Origin: Squalus acanthias
Taxonomy: Eukaryota
Reading direction: 5' to 3'
NCBI GenBank assembly: GCA_030390025.1
Contig: JASTWF010000223.1
Location: forward strand, 496,001 to 560,000
Length of the DNA stretch: 64,000 nucleotides
In this document: in pieces, positions 1,857-63,800 of the stretch
Numbering within the stretch: the first letter of the stretch is position 1
Layout: each line of letters opens with the position of its first letter
Position numbers and translations under genes: made by a program
Notes under the pieces: model-generated
Database searches by the model: none
What the model saw: the letters and a program-made list of their open reading frames with translations, nothing else
What the model was told of the DNA's origin: nothing

Positions 1857-2597
1857 AGGGGGAAACCCCCTGGTGATTCAGACCAGGGGACCCACTTTAC
1901 GGGTAGGGTCATGAAGAGGACATGTCAGTTATTGTGGGTAAAGCAGAGGTTCCACATACCTTACCACCCACAGAGTTCCGGAATGGTGGAGCGTACGAAT
2001 AGAACCCTGAAAATGGTTATAGCAAAAGCGATTGCGAGCACGGGTAAGAACTGGGTGGATGTCCTCCCGACCATATTAATGAGGTTGTGGGCAACCCCCA
2101 ACCGGACAATAGGACTAATTCCATCTGAATTAATGACTGGGAGGGCTGTGAGATTACCAGAAGGGGTGATAGAAGGGTGTAGTGAAACAGGGCCGCTGAG
2201 GGATAGAATTACACGGTATGTAGCGGAGCTATGTAAACAGCTTCAAGGGATGAAAGTGGAAGTAAAGCAGCAGCAAGAAGCGGAAGATCAACACGGGCGT
2301 GGGCCTGAACCCGAGTCATCGGGGCTCCCAACGGTGGGAGACAGGGTAATGGTAAAAGGGCTGCCGTCCAAACCGGGACTGGTGCCTCGGTGGTCTGGGC
2401 CTTACACGGTCCTAATAACCAGCGATACCTGTGCAGGTTTGGACATACAAAAGGGGGGTAGGTGGAAACATTGGTCCCAGGTTAAACCGTATGACTCACG
2501 TTCTGTTTCTTCCAACAGGAAAGCTAGAAGCAGATCTCTTAATTACTTTGTTTCAGATAAACCTCTCTCACAATGGCGGCATGGTGGACGGCCGTGA
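1857..2597 (+). mobile_element. Endogenous retrovirus integrase remnant (catalytic core plus C-terminus, 5' truncated)
   Basis: In-frame DSDQGTHFTG upstream of the ORF start, then HIPYHPQSSGMVERTNRTLK, W..VLP..L...R/WATPN and a GPY/F-type C-terminal motif (PRWSGPYTV). Confidence 0.9.
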
Positions 2598-33942: not shown

Positions 33943-35489
33943 CGCACCAAGTAAAACAATGATTAATGCCCAGAACTGTTCCTTTGCAGATGTAACTTTC
34001 CTCCCACAATGGGGGGATTGTGTGTAACTGTGCCAGTATGCGAGGCACAGTGTAAGAATAAGGGCTTTTGAGGGTATTTTGCGGGATTAGGCATTGCAAG
34101 AATTAAATGACCCTCGGCCTTTTTTCTCTGACTAGCTGCTTTCTGCAGAAAACATACCGCCTTGGATTTCCTGCTGACTGAAGTTTCTGGGTGCGTCACA
34201 AGTGGCCTCCTTTATTGTAGAAACACTGTTGTTATTTGTTTTTAATTCGTTTATGGGATGTGGGCGTCGCTGGCAAAGCCAGCATTTATTGCCCATCCCT
34301 AGTTGCCCTCGAGAAGGTGGTGGTGAGCCGCCTTCTTGAACCGCTGCAGTCCGAGCGGTTAAGGTTCTCCTACAGTGCTGTTAGGGTGGGAGTTCCAGGA
34401 TTTTGCAATAAAGGCAAGGGAAAAGGACAGGGGAGGTTCAGAGCTCTCTCAGTTTTATCTCATCGGTTCCACGTCTGTGGGGATGTGAAACTTATGTGAG
34501 CCATGCAATCATAACCAACTCTACATCCCTTTCTACTAATTTTCAGTATTGAGCTTTGCTAGACCGTAGTTTAATATTAAGAGCGCCAGTTTATAGTTTT
34601 TATTAAGTTATTATACTTTTATTAATGTAGCCTTCTTTCTCTTCTGTGGGGATTAGCGGAAATCATGTGACAAATCAGATTCTAATTGGAAGCCGTTGTC
34701 ATCATGGTTGCATCACCCACATGGAAACCAAGAACAGAAAAAGGAGATTATGGAGGCCCAAAGCCTTTGGCTGGAGGCAGAACTTCCCGGGCCCATGATT
34801 GGGTAGAATGCAGGGTTAAGGAAGGTACATGATTAGATGGATCTTTCTCTAGTTCAGGTTCTGGGGGTATATCCTAGTGGGTTTGCGTTATTCTCAGACT
34901 AGACGGGCCAGGAAGGGCACTGACCCAAACAGGTGCAGGTCCTCCTGTGAGTAGAAGGAACCAGGATTGGGCCACGCCTACTACCCAAATGACAATAACG
35001 AGTAATATAATTCTGTATCGCACTTTGTAAACTGCTGCTCCAATACTGGGTGTATTAAGTCTCACTAATGCTTAAATAAAGAAGGAAAGAAAGACTTGCA
35101 TTTATATAGCGCCTTGCACGACTACGGGACGTCCCAAAGCGCTTTACAACCAATGAAGTGCTTTTCTGAAGTGTAGTCACTGTTGTAATGTGGGAAAATC
35201 ATAACTGTTACCAATATGGAGCCAGCTTCGAACCATTGAACAGACAGTTTAAAGGGGCTTCCATTTTCTCTTACAACAGTTGCTACATGCTGCTATCAAG
35301 TATTCTACATTTGCTTTCCGAAGAACTTTAAAGGAAAAACACCAGCAAGTTGCAATGTGACTCCAGTGTTCAGCTCACATTGTAGCTATTCGGCGCTTTC
35401 ATTTAGAACTCGGGGGCGTCCAGTTTTGTCCAATTTACTGCACCAAAAATCAGGGTCAAATCCACTGCATTCATCTGTTTTTTCAATTA

Positions 35490-36097
35490 CTGTAACTGAT
35501 ATAAATGGTGATGTCACCTAACATGTTTGTTCAATGCCTGTAACTGATATAAATGGTGATGTCATCTAACATGTTTGTTCAATGGCTGTAACTGATATAA
35601 ATGGTGATGTCACCTAACATGTTTGTTCAATGCCTGTAACTGATATAAACGGTGATGTCACCTAACATGTTTGTTCAATGCCTGTAACTGATATAAATGG
35701 TGATGTCACCTAACATGTTTGTTCAATGGCTGTAACTGATATAAATGGTGATGTCACCTAACATGTTTGTTCAATGCCTGTAACTGATATAAACGGTGAT
35801 GTCACCTAACATGTTTGTTCCACGACTGTAACTGATATAAATGGTGATGTCACCTAACATGTTTGTTCAATGGCTGTAACTGATATAAACGGTGATGTCA
35901 CCTAACATGTTTGTTCAATGGCTGTAACTGATATAAATGGTGATGTCACCTAACATGTTTGTTCAATGGCTGTAACTGATATAAATGGTGATGTCACCTA
36001 TCATGTTTGTTCAATGACTGTAACTGATATAAATGGTGATGTCACCTAACATGTTTGTTCAATGGCTGTAACTAACATTAATGGTGATGTCATCTAA
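35490..36097. repeat. 48-bp minisatellite, about 12.5 copies, immediately upstream of GPCR-B exon 1
   Basis: Unit ctgtaactgatataaatggtgatgtcacctaacatgtttgttcaatgg. Confidence 0.95.
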
Positions 36098-36674
36098 TTG
36101 TGTCTCGGAGGGTTCACATCAGGTATAATAAGGGATCTTTTGAAAGTCGAACAGAGCGCGTGTGGAATCTCGAATAGACATCGCTGCTTCTCACAGAAAA
36201 TGCACGCCCCGCCCAGAGGCCTAGTATATGCCATTTACTACACTGCCCTTGCAGCTATCGCTGTGCCAGGTAAAGTATTGCAGCAAGTTATTGATTCTAA
36301 CAAGCGTTAGTTATCTGGATCGTCTCAGTAACTTGTTATTGGCCACACTTTGTGCAATGTGTTCCCCCCGGAGTCGCCTGTAGCGGGATCGGTTCGACCG
36401 ATCTTACACATTGAAGGGCCGTTGTTCAGTGCGACAGTTGATGACAATTACCTTCAAGTGTTGATGCCGGTTGTTTACTTTCATGATTGTACTCGGCCTG
36501 TATAATGGTGCAGAGTGAAATAAGCCGCCTCGAACACCCACCTCGAAATAACACTTCCAAATGTGTCTCCATTTCTCCAACCACCGCGCTGTGAGGAGCG
36601 GGGGAACGAGCCACCAGCAGCCGCCTTGCTCCCGTTTAACTGTTTCTGGTCGATTGTGGATAGATGGAGACAAT

Positions 36675-38600: not shown

Positions 38601-39237
38601 AATGTACTGAATCTGTGAATGATTGACTGTTGATTAATAATGAACAGGTTAACCATTTGTTGACCAATGCAGCATTCATCAATCCAACATGTCAATTAAT
38701 TGCTGAGATGATTTAATGATTTGTTTGAACGAATCGACTTATTGAAGGTAAGCTAAAGGCCAACAATTCGAAATCTTGAAATAAGTGACTAGTTTATTAA
38801 TAAACCTTATTCCGGGAACACGTTAATCCCGGGCTTCTGTCCCGTTTTATAACCCCGACCATTGGTTCGATCCTTCACTGGACTTCCTCACTCGCTGCTC
38901 CTGACATCTTTCCTACAAACGCTGCTCTGTCCCTCCACAGGCAGGTTCGGGTTATTTTAATTATCATTGCACAGTCCACTCTCTTAATCCATTTGAAACG
39001 TATACAATTGTTTGAATGGATTTTGTTTCCTTATGGATCTCCATTATAAATGCAAATTATTAACTTTCATCCAACCGAGATCTCCGTTCTGTCCCACTTC
39101 CACTTTGAATTATTAGACGGTTTTCATCGCTTCAAGGAACAAAGCTGCGATCTTTGCAGAATTCCGGTCAACCTAACACTTTTAAAGGAGTTTACTCTAA
39201 TTCTTTCTCTTTCTCTCTCCTTCTTACAGTTAATTTA

Positions 39238-39813
39238 GTGGCGATTGTGATCCTGTCCCGGAGAAGGTGCGGTCTCTCCAGATGTATCACTCGGTACCTG
39301 GTGTCCATGGTGACGATTGTGATCCTGTCCCGGGGAAGGTGCGGTCTCTCCAGAAGTATCACTCGGTACCTGGTGTCCACGGTGACGATTGTGATCCTGT
39401 CCCCGGGAGGGTGCGGTCTCTCCAGATGTATCACTCGGTACCTGGTGTCCATGGTGACGATTGTGATCCTGTCCCGGGGAAGGTGCGGTCTATCCAGATA
39501 TATCACTCGGTACCTGGTGTCCATGGTGACGATTGTGATCCTGTCCCGGGGAAGGTGCGGTCTCTCCAGATGTATCACTCGGTACCTGGTGTCCATGGTG
39601 ACGATTGTGATCCTGTCCCGGGGAAGGTGCGGTCTCTCCAGATGTATCACTCGGTCCCTGGTGTCCATGGTGACGATTGTGATCCTGTCCCGGGGAAGGT
39701 GCGGTCTCTCCAGATGTATCACTCGGTATCTGGTGTCCATGGTGACGATTGTGATCCTGTCCCAGGGAAGGTGCGGTCTCTCCAGATGTATCACTCGGTA
39801 CCTGGTGTCCATG
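39238..39813 (+). repeat. Coding minisatellite, 8 x 72 bp (VTIVILSRGRCGLSRCITRYLVSM)
   Basis: Eight near-identical in-frame units counted in both DNA and translation. Confidence 0.97.
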
Positions 39814-40769
39814 GCGGTGACGGATCTCCTGGTCATTCTCACCGCTGTGATATTAAACCGGATTCCGGGTATTTATTTTCCAGGTAGTTTCCTGTCCATT
39901 ACGCCCGTATGTTGTCTCAGCATTGCGTTAATTTATGCATCCAGAGACAGTTCTGTCTGGTTAACGGTTGCTTTCACCTTCGATCGATTTGTGGCCATTT
40001 GTTGCCAGAAGCTGAAAACAAAATATTGCACCGAGGAAACGGCGGCTGCTGTTATAGGAACGATCTGTGCGCTGGGATGTCTGAAAAGCGTTCCCTGCTA
40101 TTTCAAGCATGAGCCCATGTTCACAATCAACAATGTCCCGTGGTATTGCAGACTGAAGGAAATCCGTTATACCTCATCCGTGTGGACAGCGTTTGACTGG
40201 TTCGACCGTATTTTAACCCCATGTCCCCCGTTCCTTCTGGTTTTGCTGCTCAATGCTCTGACCGTCAGACACATTCTAGCGGCCAATAGAGCCCGCAGGA
40301 GACTCCGGGCCCACAGCAATGGAGAGAATCAGAGTGACCCAGAGATGTAGAGCCGGAGAAAGTCCATCGTTTTACTCTTCGCCATCTCGGGCACTTTCAT
40401 CCTGTTGTGGATGACGTTTGTTGTACAGTTCTTTTATGAGCGATTTACAAACGATTATATAATGAAAGGCTTCAATGACCCCAAATTTATTCTACAAGAA
40501 AGCGGAAATATGCTTCAGCTGTTGAGTTCTTGCACCAACACCTTTATTTATGCAGTGACTCAGAGTAAGTTCAGAGTGGAGTTAAAGAACGCGGTCACAT
40601 ATCCACTGAATGTACTCGGTGAATTAATAAAACAATGAAAGTATGAACCTCAGGATTAATTGTGCATTATGAGAATTGTCCATGGACTGCTTCAGAGTTT
40701 GGGAAACAATGTTATTGATTTGAGGTGAATACAATAAATCTGTACGTTTGTGGGCTGGCATCAGATAAA

Positions 40770-51432: not shown

Positions 51433-52328
51433 TTAACTTAGTGACGATTGTGATCCTGTCTCGGGAAAGTGCGGTCTCCCCAAATGTGTCACTCAGTACT
51501 TGGTGGCCCTGGCAGCGGCGGATCTACTGGTCGTTATCCTCGCCCTGATATTGAGGCAGATTTCGATTATTTATAGGAACAGTTTGATTGCGTTCGGTCC
51601 ATCCTCGTGTGTAATATCCACGCCGTCCTGCTTTATGCACAGACTGTTCTGTCTGGTTCACCGTCACTTTCACCTTTGATCGATTTGTGGACATTTGTTG
51701 CCAGAAGCTGAAAACTAAATATTGCACCGAGAAAACGGCGGCTGTAGTTCTGGGAACAGTGACTGTGCTGAGCGGTTTAAAGAACATCACCTGGTATTTT
51801 ATGTTCACAGATCGGTATTGGCTTTCGAACGACCCCTGGTTTTGTGATGTAACAATGGATGTTCAGGAATCACGGGTCTGGGGAACAATCGAGTTCCTTC
51901 ATTATATTCCTACCCTGAGTGTCCCATTTGTTATGATTCTGCTGCTCAATTCTGTCACCGTCAGACACATTTTAGGGTCCAGCAGAGCCCGCAGGAGACT
52001 CCGGGGTCCCAGCAGTGGGGAGAGTCCCAGAGACCCAGAGATGGAGAGCCGCAGGAAATCCATCATTTTACTGCTTGTTTTGTCAGGCAATTTCATCCTG
52101 TTATGGGCAGATTTTATGCTGTATTATATATGGAGGCGGATATAGTATTTGGTTTCTGTGTCTGTATTTCTAAATTATTAGGCACTGGAAATGGCATTGA
52201 TGCTGCAGCTCCTGAGTTGCTGCACAATCACTGGGATTTACTCCGTGACTCAGACTAAGTTCAGAGAGCAGTTGAAGACTATGGTGAAATATCCCTTTAC
52301 TATATTTGTAAAATTCATTAAAGGATGA
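51433..52328 (+). pseudogene. GPR139/GPR142-like GPCR pseudogene (GPCR-C), single 72-bp unit
   Basis: NLVTIVILSR..., SVWFTVTFTFDRFVDICCQKLKTKYC and DPEMESRRKSIILL motifs. Acceptor reads cacat instead of cacag; frameshifts and stops present. Confidence 0.88.
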
Positions 52329-60869: not shown

Positions 60870-63800
60870 TAGACCCATCGTTTCAGCCTGTTCTCGCCTC
60901 AACGGCCCAACCAGTACCCATCCACCATCACCCGCCTCCTGTTAGTGTGGTAGAAAAAGCTGTTAATGTGGAAGAAAAACCTTTTATTGCGGTAGAAGGA
61001 CCAGTTATGCCCACTGCACCCTCCTGCACACTTCGATTAGAAGGAAATTGTTACAATTGTGGGAGACCTGGGCACTATTCTAATTTTTGTAAGAAACCTC
61101 GAAAACAGTGCCAACGGTACCCTCTCCTTCAAGGAAATGTACCCCCACCACCCGCGATAATATCCGCTGATCCCCTGGAGACCAAGTTAGATCAATTGGC
61201 CGGAGAAATGAGTAAAATGACAGCCATACTGAACACCCACATTGTTACAAGAGCTAATCCGGTGGGGGCCTTCTCGAACCAGGCTGGACGACAGCCACAG
61301 GGATCCCAGGCAACGGCCCAATGAAGGGACGGGCCCTCTCTTGTTCGGAAGTGGGGTTCCGACGTGATGTTAACGGGCGACAGGAAATGTTGTTTTTTCT
61401 AACGGGGGGCCGACAACAACTCATGCTTATTGACACCGGTTCATCCATTACCATCATCCATACCGTACACCCTGAACGCCATGCTGCGGCGGGCAAGGGA
61501 TGCTTGACATTACCAGGCTTTGATGGGAAGCCAACCTCTGCTTTTAAGGGAGAAATAATAACTATGTGTAAAAACGGAATTTAATTGAATGTTGATAGCA
61601 CTGTCTTGATGACAACTCCTGATGAAAGGGGCATATTGGGAAGTGATGTTTTGGAAAGTTACGGGACAATTATTGATTACAACCAGAGATGTATTTGGAT
61701 TCGGGACAGGAGGTGGTGAATTTGTCGAAATATCGGATGCCCACTCCGTTTTTGCGATTAATAAGACTTGCTTGTACGAGGCATTAGATCACACAGATGA
61801 GCGAGTCAAAGTATTAATTCAAACGCACTCACCCTCATTCGCCACCAGTAAGCAGGACTGCGGTCGAATGGAATGTGAGGAGACGATTAACGGTCCGCCC
61901 CACTCCTTTGTTCAACAGTACCCAATTCCCAAAGAAAGTCATCCCTATATTAGAGACGTCATCGACTCCCTCTTAAAACAGGGCATTCTGAGAACAGGCA
62001 CGTTCACGGTTAATTCATCAGCTTGGCCGGTTCGGAAGCCGCACAATAGCTGGAGGCTCACTGTTGATTACCGAATTCTTAACAAGGTTACACCCAAGAG
62101 CGCTCCTATTGTTAAGGATGCTCCCACCTTATTATCAGAGCTCCTGAAAGACTCTAAATACTGCTCCACCCTAGACATTGCGAATGGCTTTTGGAGTATT
62201 CCCGACAGAACAGAGGATCAATATAAATTTGCTTTCACCTCTGAGGACCAGAGTTACACGTGGTCGTGCCGCCCCAAGGCTTCCACAACGCCCCGAACAT
62301 TTTCCATACCAGAATGATACGGATCCTGAAAGCTTTTTCTAAGCCCCAGTGTCTGCTTTAGTGTGTCGAAGATTTGCTACTGGCTACTCGTACAATCGAG
62401 GAGCACGTTGAACTATTAGATGAACTTTTAACACTGTTAAGCAGTGCAGCTTGAAAATTAACCCTGGAAGAGCTCAGCTTTTGCAGGAAAAGGTCACCTA
62501 TTTGGGAGTGACGATCTCTCCGTAGGGTCTAAGTCCTGACGAGCACAAAATAGAGGTCATTCAACGACTCCCGCTTCCTGTATCCCGGACAGCACTCCGA
62601 TCGTTTTTGGGACTACTTGGATACCAGCGTAGTTTTATTCCTGGATTTGCAGAACTTGTAAAGCCCCTCTATGAACTGTTAAAAGGAAAAGAGGATCAAA
62701 GTTCCTCCCTGTGGGGGCCAGATCACACCGCTGCAGTTAAGAATTTGAAACAGGCTGTTACGCAGACTACCTGTCTGATATCACCTGACCCGACACAACC
62801 ATTCCATCTCGAGGTCGGATCCAACGACCACAGTCTGACTGCGGTCCTATGTCAAGAACGACTGCACAGATTACAAACGATCGCTTATGCCTCACGGGTA
62901 TTGCAGGGGGCAGAACGGACTTATTCAGCGTGTGAGCGCCACTCACTGGCAACGTTCTGGGCCAATCAACACTTTACCTACATTACGGGCTTTCAGAGGA
63001 TCATCTTACATTCCCCTTACACCCCACTGAACCTCCTTATCCAACTAGGCAATTCGTTGATCTTATCCCGACGCATCAGTAAATGGATTTTCGAACTATT
63101 ACATCGGGACATTGATATAACCTCCAAACAGACAACTCTTTTACCACTGATGCTTGCGTATGAGGGACAGCCTCACAAGTGTTCACTGCCTTTAATAGAC
63201 TTTGAGTCCCATCCTGTTTTGCGATCACCAAAAGAAGAAACCTCTGAAGTATACGTGGATGGCTCCTCCTACCACATACAGGGGTCACCTCATACCGGAT
63301 GTGCTGTGGTCCTGCCCGAGAAGATTCTCAAGTTTAAAAGTAACAAACACTCAAGCCAATATATAGAGATTTTGGCCCATCTCATCGCCGTTCAAGAAAC
63401 TTCTGGCTACCCGACAAACATTTGGTCTGACAGTGCCTATCCCATCAATGCCATGCTGTCCCTTCCCCTCTACCAAAAGAATTCCTACTTCTCGTCAGAT
63501 GGTAAACCCCTAACACATGGGTCATGCTTACGTCCCAAATGGCAGGCCCTAAAGGCACGACAAAAGCCTTATCACATTGGTAAGGGTAATGCCCTGGGGT
63601 ATAATGCGGCAGATGTAGCTGCTAAAGAAGCAGCCCTGACCCATGATCCTCTCCCTCTACCACTTGTGGAGTTAATCTGCTGCAGTTAGCAAAGCTCTCA
63701 ATCTGGCTTCGCTTCAAACAGATTATTGCCCCTATGAGATGGTCATCAATTGGCATGACCAAGGTAAACCCTTACCGGCACCTACCACATGGGCCCCCAA

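What the first reader, a model, noticed from the sequence alone, without database searches (positions are those of the whole stretch)
39238..39813. GPCR paralogs carry a variable-number coding repeat (1, 2 and 8 copies) in the TM1-ICL1-TM2 region
Seen: the same 72-bp unit with the same junction (TCCATG|GTGACGATTGTG) occurs 8x in GPCR-B, 2x in GPCR-A (20275-20418) and 1x in GPCR-C, in frame in A and B. In GPCR-B only the first unit begins GTG GCG; the later seven begin GTG ACG, as in GPCR-A. Inference: the array was seeded or homogenised by exchange between paralogs. Each unit adds an 11-residue hydrophobic stretch plus an Arg/Cys-rich loop, probably too short for a TM helix, so it would lengthen ICL1 or kill the receptor. 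This could be a family-wide VNTR that diversifies or switches off members of an expanded GPCR family.
Basis: partly seen in the sequence, partly recalled or inferred. Interest (0 to 1): 0.7.

Follow-up and report, generated by a model that had tools for sequence, protein, structure and literature searches.

The report
Repeat spreading between shark receptor genes
A 72-base piece of a shark receptor gene became a tandem repeat that sits, with one and the same joint, in four separate branches of a very large gene family; it was likely copied from gene to gene, and since its carriers are broken or drift like dead genes it likely switches receptors off rather than diversifying them.

Summary
The array is real: 8 x 72 bp, in frame, at the start of exon 2 of a cartilaginous-fish GPR139-like receptor gene. 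It is not family-wide: 14 loci carry it (2-13 units) against about 1,300 family sites. All 61 junctions read as one type (one 75-bp variant), and only a Val-Thr-type gene like A can make that type by microhomology. The carriers fall in four lineages 78-86% alike (one clade rejected, AU p=1.7e-36), keep their own first codons, and share two markers missing from single-unit relatives. The unit lies in a tract already homogenised among paralogs at silent sites. So one duplication likely spread by interlocus gene conversion, then changed length by unequal exchange. All three window genes are broken (B stop, A no exon 1, C frameshift); 11 of 14 carriers are broken, and open-frame carriers evolve neutrally (dN/dS 0.97 versus 0.31). 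'Switches off' is favoured over 'diversifies'; whether the array kills or follows death is only partly resolved. The repeat also occurs in contigs of other organisms.

The parts
39238..39813 (+). Array of 8 x 72-bp in-frame units (end of TM1, ICL1, start of TM2) in gene B
36200..36269 (+). Exon 1 of gene B (N-terminus and first part of TM1), followed by a GT donor; phase-1 intron
   Evidence: HMM built from N-termini of 88 homologues, 44 bits; sequence
39230..40638 (+). Exon 2 of gene B (AG acceptor at 39228-39229; normal stop at 40636-40638)
   Evidence: Pfam 7tm_1
40348..40350 (+). Premature TAG in ICL3 of B, removing TM6-TM7; shared with L036, absent from L035
20275..20418 (-). Array of 2 x 72-bp units in gene A
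19453..20426 (-). Exon 2 of gene A: open frame, conserved TM2 Asp read as Ala (20263-20265); exon 1 not found, and similarity to intact relatives ends near 21820
51433..52328 (+). Gene C: distant family member, one diverged unit, no junction, acceptor AT, frameshift and stops

Best explanation
This is a coding minisatellite, likely born once by a short-homology duplication in a Val-Thr-type receptor gene, that was likely copied by gene conversion into three other branches of the family and likely inactivates the receptors that receive it. Steps: (1) shown: a 72-bp unit flanked by TGG (CATGG in L039/L042) exists only in A-type genes; inferred: the first duplication happened there. (2) shown: the unit and the next 60-70 bases are 97-99% alike among single-unit paralogs whose bodies are about 80% alike, silent sites included; inferred: this is a standing conversion tract. 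(3) shown: carriers in other lineages keep their own first codons and gene bodies but have donor-type junctions and shared markers; inferred: a recipient paired with two different units of a donor array and copied what lay between. (4) shown: ordered unit variants and 2-13 copies among recent duplicates; inferred: unequal exchange or slippage. (5) shown: carriers are broken or neutral; inferred: 24 extra residues per unit, repeating helix ends between TM1 and TM2, spoil folding, selection lapses, and stops and frameshifts follow.
For: One junction type in all 14 loci, also in a search blind to the junction (59 of 60 matches in the same loci); codon 2 is ACG in 60 of 61 later units, while first units of the three non-A lineages have GCG or GCT in 7 of 7 that keep their 5' end. 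Carriers as one clade rejected on gene bodies: p-AU 1.7e-36, 7 changes, 47 rows; bodies 78-86%, intron ends 50-59% alike. G at unit position 24: 0 of 30 single-unit genes of these lineages, 56 of 60 units in non-A arrays; A at position 47: 0 of 99 single-unit genes, present in arrays of all four lineages. Microhomology at the 72-bp period only in the A type; the others favour 69 bp. Fourfold-site divergence 0.09-0.10 over the unit and TM2 start against 0.19-0.48 in most of the body; silent-polymorphic columns 8 of 33 against 51 of 75, p=4.6e-5. Exon 2 open in 4 of 14 carriers against 56 of 83 single-unit genes, p=0.008. Branch counts: open-frame carriers 8 silent to 25 replacement (0.97), single-unit genes 220 to 219 (0.31), p=0.006. 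In the B lineage all six copies share the array but not the stop or frameshift, so the array came first. Tandem joint also in contigs of organism D and of organism B, two studies.
Against: With kinship removed only 6 independent pairs remain and the link between array and breakage is not significant (median p 0.375). Without A the open-frame contrast weakens to p=0.03, or 0.064 against end branches only; counts are small and assembly errors add replacement changes. L038 and its single-unit sister L131 both lack a detectable exon 1 in the DNA fetched, and A and L037 share loss of exon 1, so there the array may have entered genes already dead. Three carriers keep both exons and an open frame. 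A run guessed to be RNA holds the repeat. No fold shows that the array spoils the receptor. Low silent divergence could reflect another constraint on the DNA or RNA, not conversion. G24 does occur in 20 of 99 single-unit genes overall, most of them distant.
Confidence: 0.65

Rival explanations
1. Same origin and spread, but the array is a passenger: it lands anywhere in the conversion tract and survives only in genes that were already non-functional, or redundant, for other reasons.
For: L038/L131 and A/L037 may have lost exon 1 first; a third of single-unit genes are broken too (27 of 83); the paired test is not significant.
Against: In L032, L039 and L042 the array is the only visible lesion; in the B lineage it predates the stop and the frameshift; in L040/L041 a stop lies inside the array. 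Survival only in dead genes still implies that the array is harmful to live ones.
Confidence: 0.3
2. The array moved as a small DNA circle, excised from one array and integrated by a single crossover into the matching unit of another gene, rather than by gene conversion.
For: Gives the same product: recipient first codons, donor junctions, recipient body. Raised for Drosophila satellites in PMC7403614 (passages read).
Against: Homogenisation also covers single-unit genes and a second tract at ICL3 that has no repeat, so conversion is already at work here; L040/L041 differ from their single-unit sisters just beyond the array at bases shared with other lineages.
Confidence: 0.15
3. Functional diversification: extra units form added membrane-associated helices or a longer loop and change signalling; the array is tolerated or favoured in some receptors.
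For: All units are in frame except one; the three complete carriers have 3, 3 and 5 units, an even number of extra units; within their arrays 5 of 7 distinct variants are silent; the junction 19-mer has hydropathy 1.48, between native TM3 (1.37) and TM1 (1.82); possible RNA in organism B.
Confidence: 0.08
4. Independent duplications in each lineage, or one ancestral array lost from most genes, with no transfer.
For: Arrays collapse easily; within the A clade single-unit and multi-unit genes are interleaved, so losses there are possible.
Against: Non-A genes cannot make the ACG junction from their own sequence; an array older than lineages 80% alike would have to be lost many times and in other sharks, where 118 of 120 homologues show no second unit and the other two are fused gene models; shared markers at positions 24 and 47.
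Confidence: 0.04
5. Assembly artefact.
For: Copy numbers come from one assembly; some loci 98-99% alike could be alternative haplotypes.
Against: Units carry distinct variants in the same order in B, L034 and L036; the tandem joint is in contigs of other organisms.
Confidence: 0.02

Closest known systems
[quoted passage not shown]
   Same: A rare microhomology-born junction is shared by distant loci and is proposed to spread by interlocus gene conversion or circular DNA through flanking homology, then to change length by unequal exchange.
   Different: There a foreign satellite enters non-coding arrays; here the repeat is a piece of the coding exon itself, the landing site is the matching single unit in other genes, and carriers lose purifying selection.
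DRD4 48-bp exon-3 VNTR (PMC3164202; search listing and start of abstract only)
   Same: In-frame variable tandem repeat in a class A GPCR.
   Different: DRD4's repeat lies in the third intracellular loop of one working gene and varies between alleles; this one repeats helix ends of TM1 and TM2, occurs across paralogs, and its carriers are broken or neutral.
CCR2/CCR5 gene conversion (PMC8877049; passages read) and interlocus conversion generally (PMC3966223; passages read)
   Same: Patchwise conversion between GPCR paralogs; short tracts inside about 100 bp of identity between genes about 82% alike (fog-2/ftr-1).
   Different: Those exchange point differences between two genes; here a multi-unit insertion moves among four lineages of a family of about 1,300 sites, and the homogenised patches are the cytoplasmic faces.
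Cartilaginous-fish 'probable G-protein coupled receptor 139' gene models (source names)
   Same: Same family: best hit 86% identical; two exons with the same boundary.
   Different: None of the 120 listed homologues has the array, nor does any hit of a search on the array region.

Membership tests
Class A (rhodopsin-like) GPCR | Pfam 7tm_1 above the curated cut-off | tested here: met
   48.6 and 51.4 bits against 30.5 for A and B; model matches class A structures
Cartilaginous-fish GPR139-like expansion | Close similarity to the gene models so named | tested here: met
   2,570 hits at E<=1e-20; all named rows among the best 120 are sharks or rays
GPR139 orthologue | One-to-one orthology and shared ligand | not tested
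   GPR139 is the best solved-structure match of a homologue but distant, E 4e-13; no tree with GPR139/GPR142 was built
Minisatellite / VNTR | Head-to-tail units of tens of bases with interspersed variants | tested here: met
Minisatellite / VNTR | Copy number varies between alleles in a population | not testable with these tools
   Varies 2-13 between loci; only contigs were available for other samples, which cannot give copy number
DRD4-type functional coding VNTR | Lies in a loop of a working receptor under purifying selection | tested here: not met
   Unit includes helix ends; 11 of 14 carriers broken; dN/dS 0.97 in open-frame carriers
Interlocus gene conversion tract | Tract history conflicts with the history of the flanks; shared derived markers | tested here: met
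Interlocus gene conversion tract | Local drop and clustering of silent divergence | tested here: met
   (permutation p=0.0003)
Interlocus gene conversion tract | Non-reciprocal transfer | not testable with these tools
   Needs pedigrees or sperm typing; circle integration or double crossover give the same product
Pseudogene (gene B) | Disabling lesion in the coding sequence | tested here: met
   TAG at 40348-40350
Pseudogene (carriers) | Not transcribed | tested here: inconclusive
   One run guessed to be RNA holds the repeat and an exit into TM2; contigs cannot show transcription

The most novel reading that the evidence does not exclude
A self-propagating gene-disabling repeat: born from the family's own coding sequence, it spreads like a contagion along the conversion tract that keeps the G-protein-facing surfaces of these receptors uniform, knocking out each paralog it enters, and each longer array is a better donor. 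The same conversion that maintains the family would then be an engine of its gene death, in several related shark species.
Probability: 0.4. Interest if true: 0.68.

Novelty: new variant of a known kind. Interest (0 to 1): 0.5.

Why it matters
Gene death in birth-and-death families is usually treated as independent point lesions in each copy. Here one lesion appears to have moved between lineages about 20% apart, with a traceable junction, donor type and markers, which makes the rate, direction and tract length of ectopic exchange measurable in a vertebrate family of about 1,300 sites. It also exposes patchwise homogenisation of the cytoplasmic faces of a huge, little-studied shark receptor family (searches for GPR139 with elasmobranch, and for 'coupled receptor 139' with shark, gave 0 and 1 unrelated paper). 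It affects about 1% of the family and gives no sign of a new receptor function.

Tried and rejected
A fifteenth candidate locus (C29:14791783, L112) was a false hit: a single unit whose own start resembles the junction. My first rule for an intact frame misjudged one subfamily and was replaced. A tblastn search for exon 1 failed on a bad option and was replaced by an HMM. Structure: the model from an alignment with full homologues put a helix on the last junction at pLDDT 81-90, but the homologues' TM1 had been aligned onto it; with exon-2-only rows the array was unstructured at pLDDT 22-26 and the whole model poor, 53; both lack exon 1; inconclusive. Runs: no RNA holder listed, no evidence either way. 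In X6 and X7 (organisms B, C) an 83-base contig crosses A's junction with 54 and 29 bases, two short of the tool's 31-base rule, so not counted. No junction-crossing piece was listed for X4, X5 (732 pieces not shown) or for X9, X12 (142 not shown); contigs do not show absence. The parity idea (even numbers of extra units keep topology) rests on two independent events and was not upheld by dN/dS. A pattern search for the ICL3 tract had a slip in the pattern and found nothing; not repeated. Literature searches found no description of this array; most subscription papers and all supplements were not seen.

Full report
Observation. Tandem Repeats Finder gives 8.0 units of 72 bp at 39238-39814 (96% matches) and 2.0 units at 20274-20420. 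Both are in frame; B's first unit starts GTG GCG and the other seven GTG ACG. Gene C has a single diverged unit and no junction. The unit encodes the last part of TM1, ICL1 and the first part of TM2 of a class A GPCR of the cartilaginous-fish family that databases name 'probable G-protein coupled receptor 139'. The genes have two exons; exon 2 begins 8 bases before the unit.

The window's genes are broken. B has exon 1 at 36200-36269 and good splice sites but a TAG at 40348-40350 that removes TM6 and TM7. A has an open exon 2, but no exon 1 is found on its strand in the window, similarity to intact relatives stops about 1.4 kb upstream, and the conserved TM2 Asp (the 2.50 position, named from general knowledge of class A receptors) reads Ala. 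C has an AT acceptor, a frameshift and stops.

Genome-wide extent. The exact junction has 55 matches, a looser pattern 63, and a pattern blind to the junction 60, of which 59 fall in the same loci and one is unrelated. After removing one false hit there are 14 loci on 12 contigs with 2, 2, 3, 3, 4, 4, 4, 5, 6, 7, 7, 7, 8 and 13 units: 75 units, 61 junctions. A TM2 motif finds 1,312 family sites, so carriers are about 1%. Some loci are 98-99% alike over 9 kb and may be recent duplicates or alternative haplotypes.

One origin. Codon 2 is ACG in 60 of 61 later units (one ATG variant), whereas the first units of the L032, B and L040 lineages have GCG or GCT wherever the 5' end is kept. In an A-type single-unit gene the 72-bp period is flanked by TGG and the 75-bp period by a 7-base match; in the other types there is no match of 4 or more at 72 bp and 69 bp is favoured. 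L039 and L042, which branch at the base of the A clade, have ATG before unit 1, which gives a 5-base match. L038 has one 75-bp junction. Origin in the A lineage is inferred from this.

Spread. I fetched 80 stretches (79 of the first 100 exact sites listed, plus the candidate locus) and used 30 loci. On a tree of gene bodies without the array (105 rows) carriers fall in four lineages, three of them beside or among single-unit genes. On 47 rows, with the first 60 bases dropped, one clade of carriers is rejected (p-AU 1.7e-36) and 7 changes are needed. Bodies are 78-86% alike and intron ends 50-59%. High unit identity alone proves nothing, because single units are 97-99% alike too. The markers do: G24 is in 0 of 30 single-unit genes of these lineages but in 56 of 60 non-A array units and in one A-array unit; A47 is in 0 of 99 single-unit genes and in arrays of all four lineages. 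G24 occurs in 20 of the 99 overall, mostly distant genes and three B-like fragments.

Why here. Among nine single-unit lineage representatives, fourfold-site divergence is 0.087 over the unit and 0.102 over the TM2 start, 0.07-0.08 around ICL3, and 0.19-0.48 elsewhere. Silent-polymorphic columns are 8 of 33 against 51 of 75 (p=4.6e-5) and invariant columns cluster (p=0.0003). A-type genes here end the unit with Ser-Met where their nearest homologues in other sharks have Gly-Met. The simplest reading is a standing conversion tract, which is what a donor array needs to be copied into a distant paralog; another constraint on the DNA or RNA is not excluded. After arrival, length changes locally: B, L034 and L036 share ordered variants, and L036 repeats a two-unit block.

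Consequence. Exon 2 is open in 4 of 14 carriers against 56 of 83 single-unit genes (p=0.008); with exon 1 required, 3 of 14 are complete (L032, L039, L042). These counts are not independent: 6 independent pairs give median p 0.375. Parsimony counts on 42 rows (the truncated L031, L033, L034 and the badly broken L081, L129 left out) give 8 silent to 25 replacement changes on open-frame carrier branches (0.97), 35 to 71 on broken or mixed carrier branches (0.63), and 220 to 219 on single-unit branches (0.31); p=0.006. Without A it is 8 to 20, p=0.03, or 0.064 against end branches alone. Order of events: in the B lineage the array is shared while the stop and the frameshift are not, and in L040/L041 a stop lies inside the array, so the array came first; for L038 and for A/L037 exon 1 may have gone first. 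Some frameshifts lie in A-runs and could be assembly errors.

Protein level. The junction fuses the TM2 start to the TM1 end; its best 19-residue hydropathy is 1.48, against 1.82 for TM1 and 1.37 for TM3, with an Arg inside. Two folds of the L039 exon-2 product disagree and the confident helix traces to the alignment, so damage to folding is inferred from the evolutionary signal, not shown.

Other organisms. A joint that goes back 72 bases is in two contigs of X8 (organism D, 34 bases on the short side) and in a 102-base contig of X19 (organism B, 41 bases), two studies. X19 is only guessed to be RNA; just two of its records lay on the stretch, the repeat and an exit into TM2, a weak hint that a carrier is transcribed. 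No annotated protein with the array was found among 120 homologues or in a search on the array region.

Comparison. It works like the junction spread proposed for Drosophila Rsp-like satellites (PMC7403614, passages) and like CCR2/CCR5 conversion (PMC8877049, passages). It resembles the DRD4 repeat (PMC3164202, listing and start of abstract) only in being an in-frame repeat in a GPCR and fails the test of lying in a working gene. Searches named under Tried and rejected found no description of it. Verdict: real, a new variant of known processes, interest 0.5.

Noticed in passing
exon 2 of single-unit family members, e.g. L097, L101, L090, L093; window 40250-40390: Silent divergence between paralogs drops to 0.07-0.10 at TM1-ICL1-TM2 and at TM5-ICL3-TM6 but is 0.35-0.48 in extracellular parts: the G-protein-facing surfaces look homogenised while ligand-facing parts diverge.
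   Followed up: partly
window 35476-36097: 13 copies of a 48-bp unit ending about 100 bases before the start codon of B's exon 1; also in L034 and L036 with other lengths.
   Followed up: no
window 17785-19412: 24 copies of a 67-bp unit starting 40 bases after A's stop codon; the same period shows behind L037, L039 and L042.
   Followed up: no
   Followed up: no
L031 and L033, upstream of the array: An 83-bp satellite of at least 7.8 kb replaces the 5' part of the gene and ends about 40 bases before a junction; L040 has a 32-bp satellite of 5.5 kb upstream.
   Followed up: partly
G000 C1384, C713, C581, C636: A-type and B-type genes sit head to head 18-25 kb apart on four contigs, a duplicated block; the A partner has 2 units in the window and 1 in the others.
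   Followed up: partly
L096, L116, L121, L128, L142: Broken single-unit B-like exon-2 fragments, four of them 3-6 kb downstream of B-type arrays; three carry the G24 marker.
   Followed up: partly
L038 first junction (G000:C1428:684042-684067): The only 75-bp unit; it keeps one extra codon and matches the 7-base microhomology.
   Followed up: partly
window 1911-2597, 61622-62317, 63150-63689: ORFs that look like integrase, reverse transcriptase and RNase H pieces of LTR retroelements (by eye; not tested).
   Followed up: no
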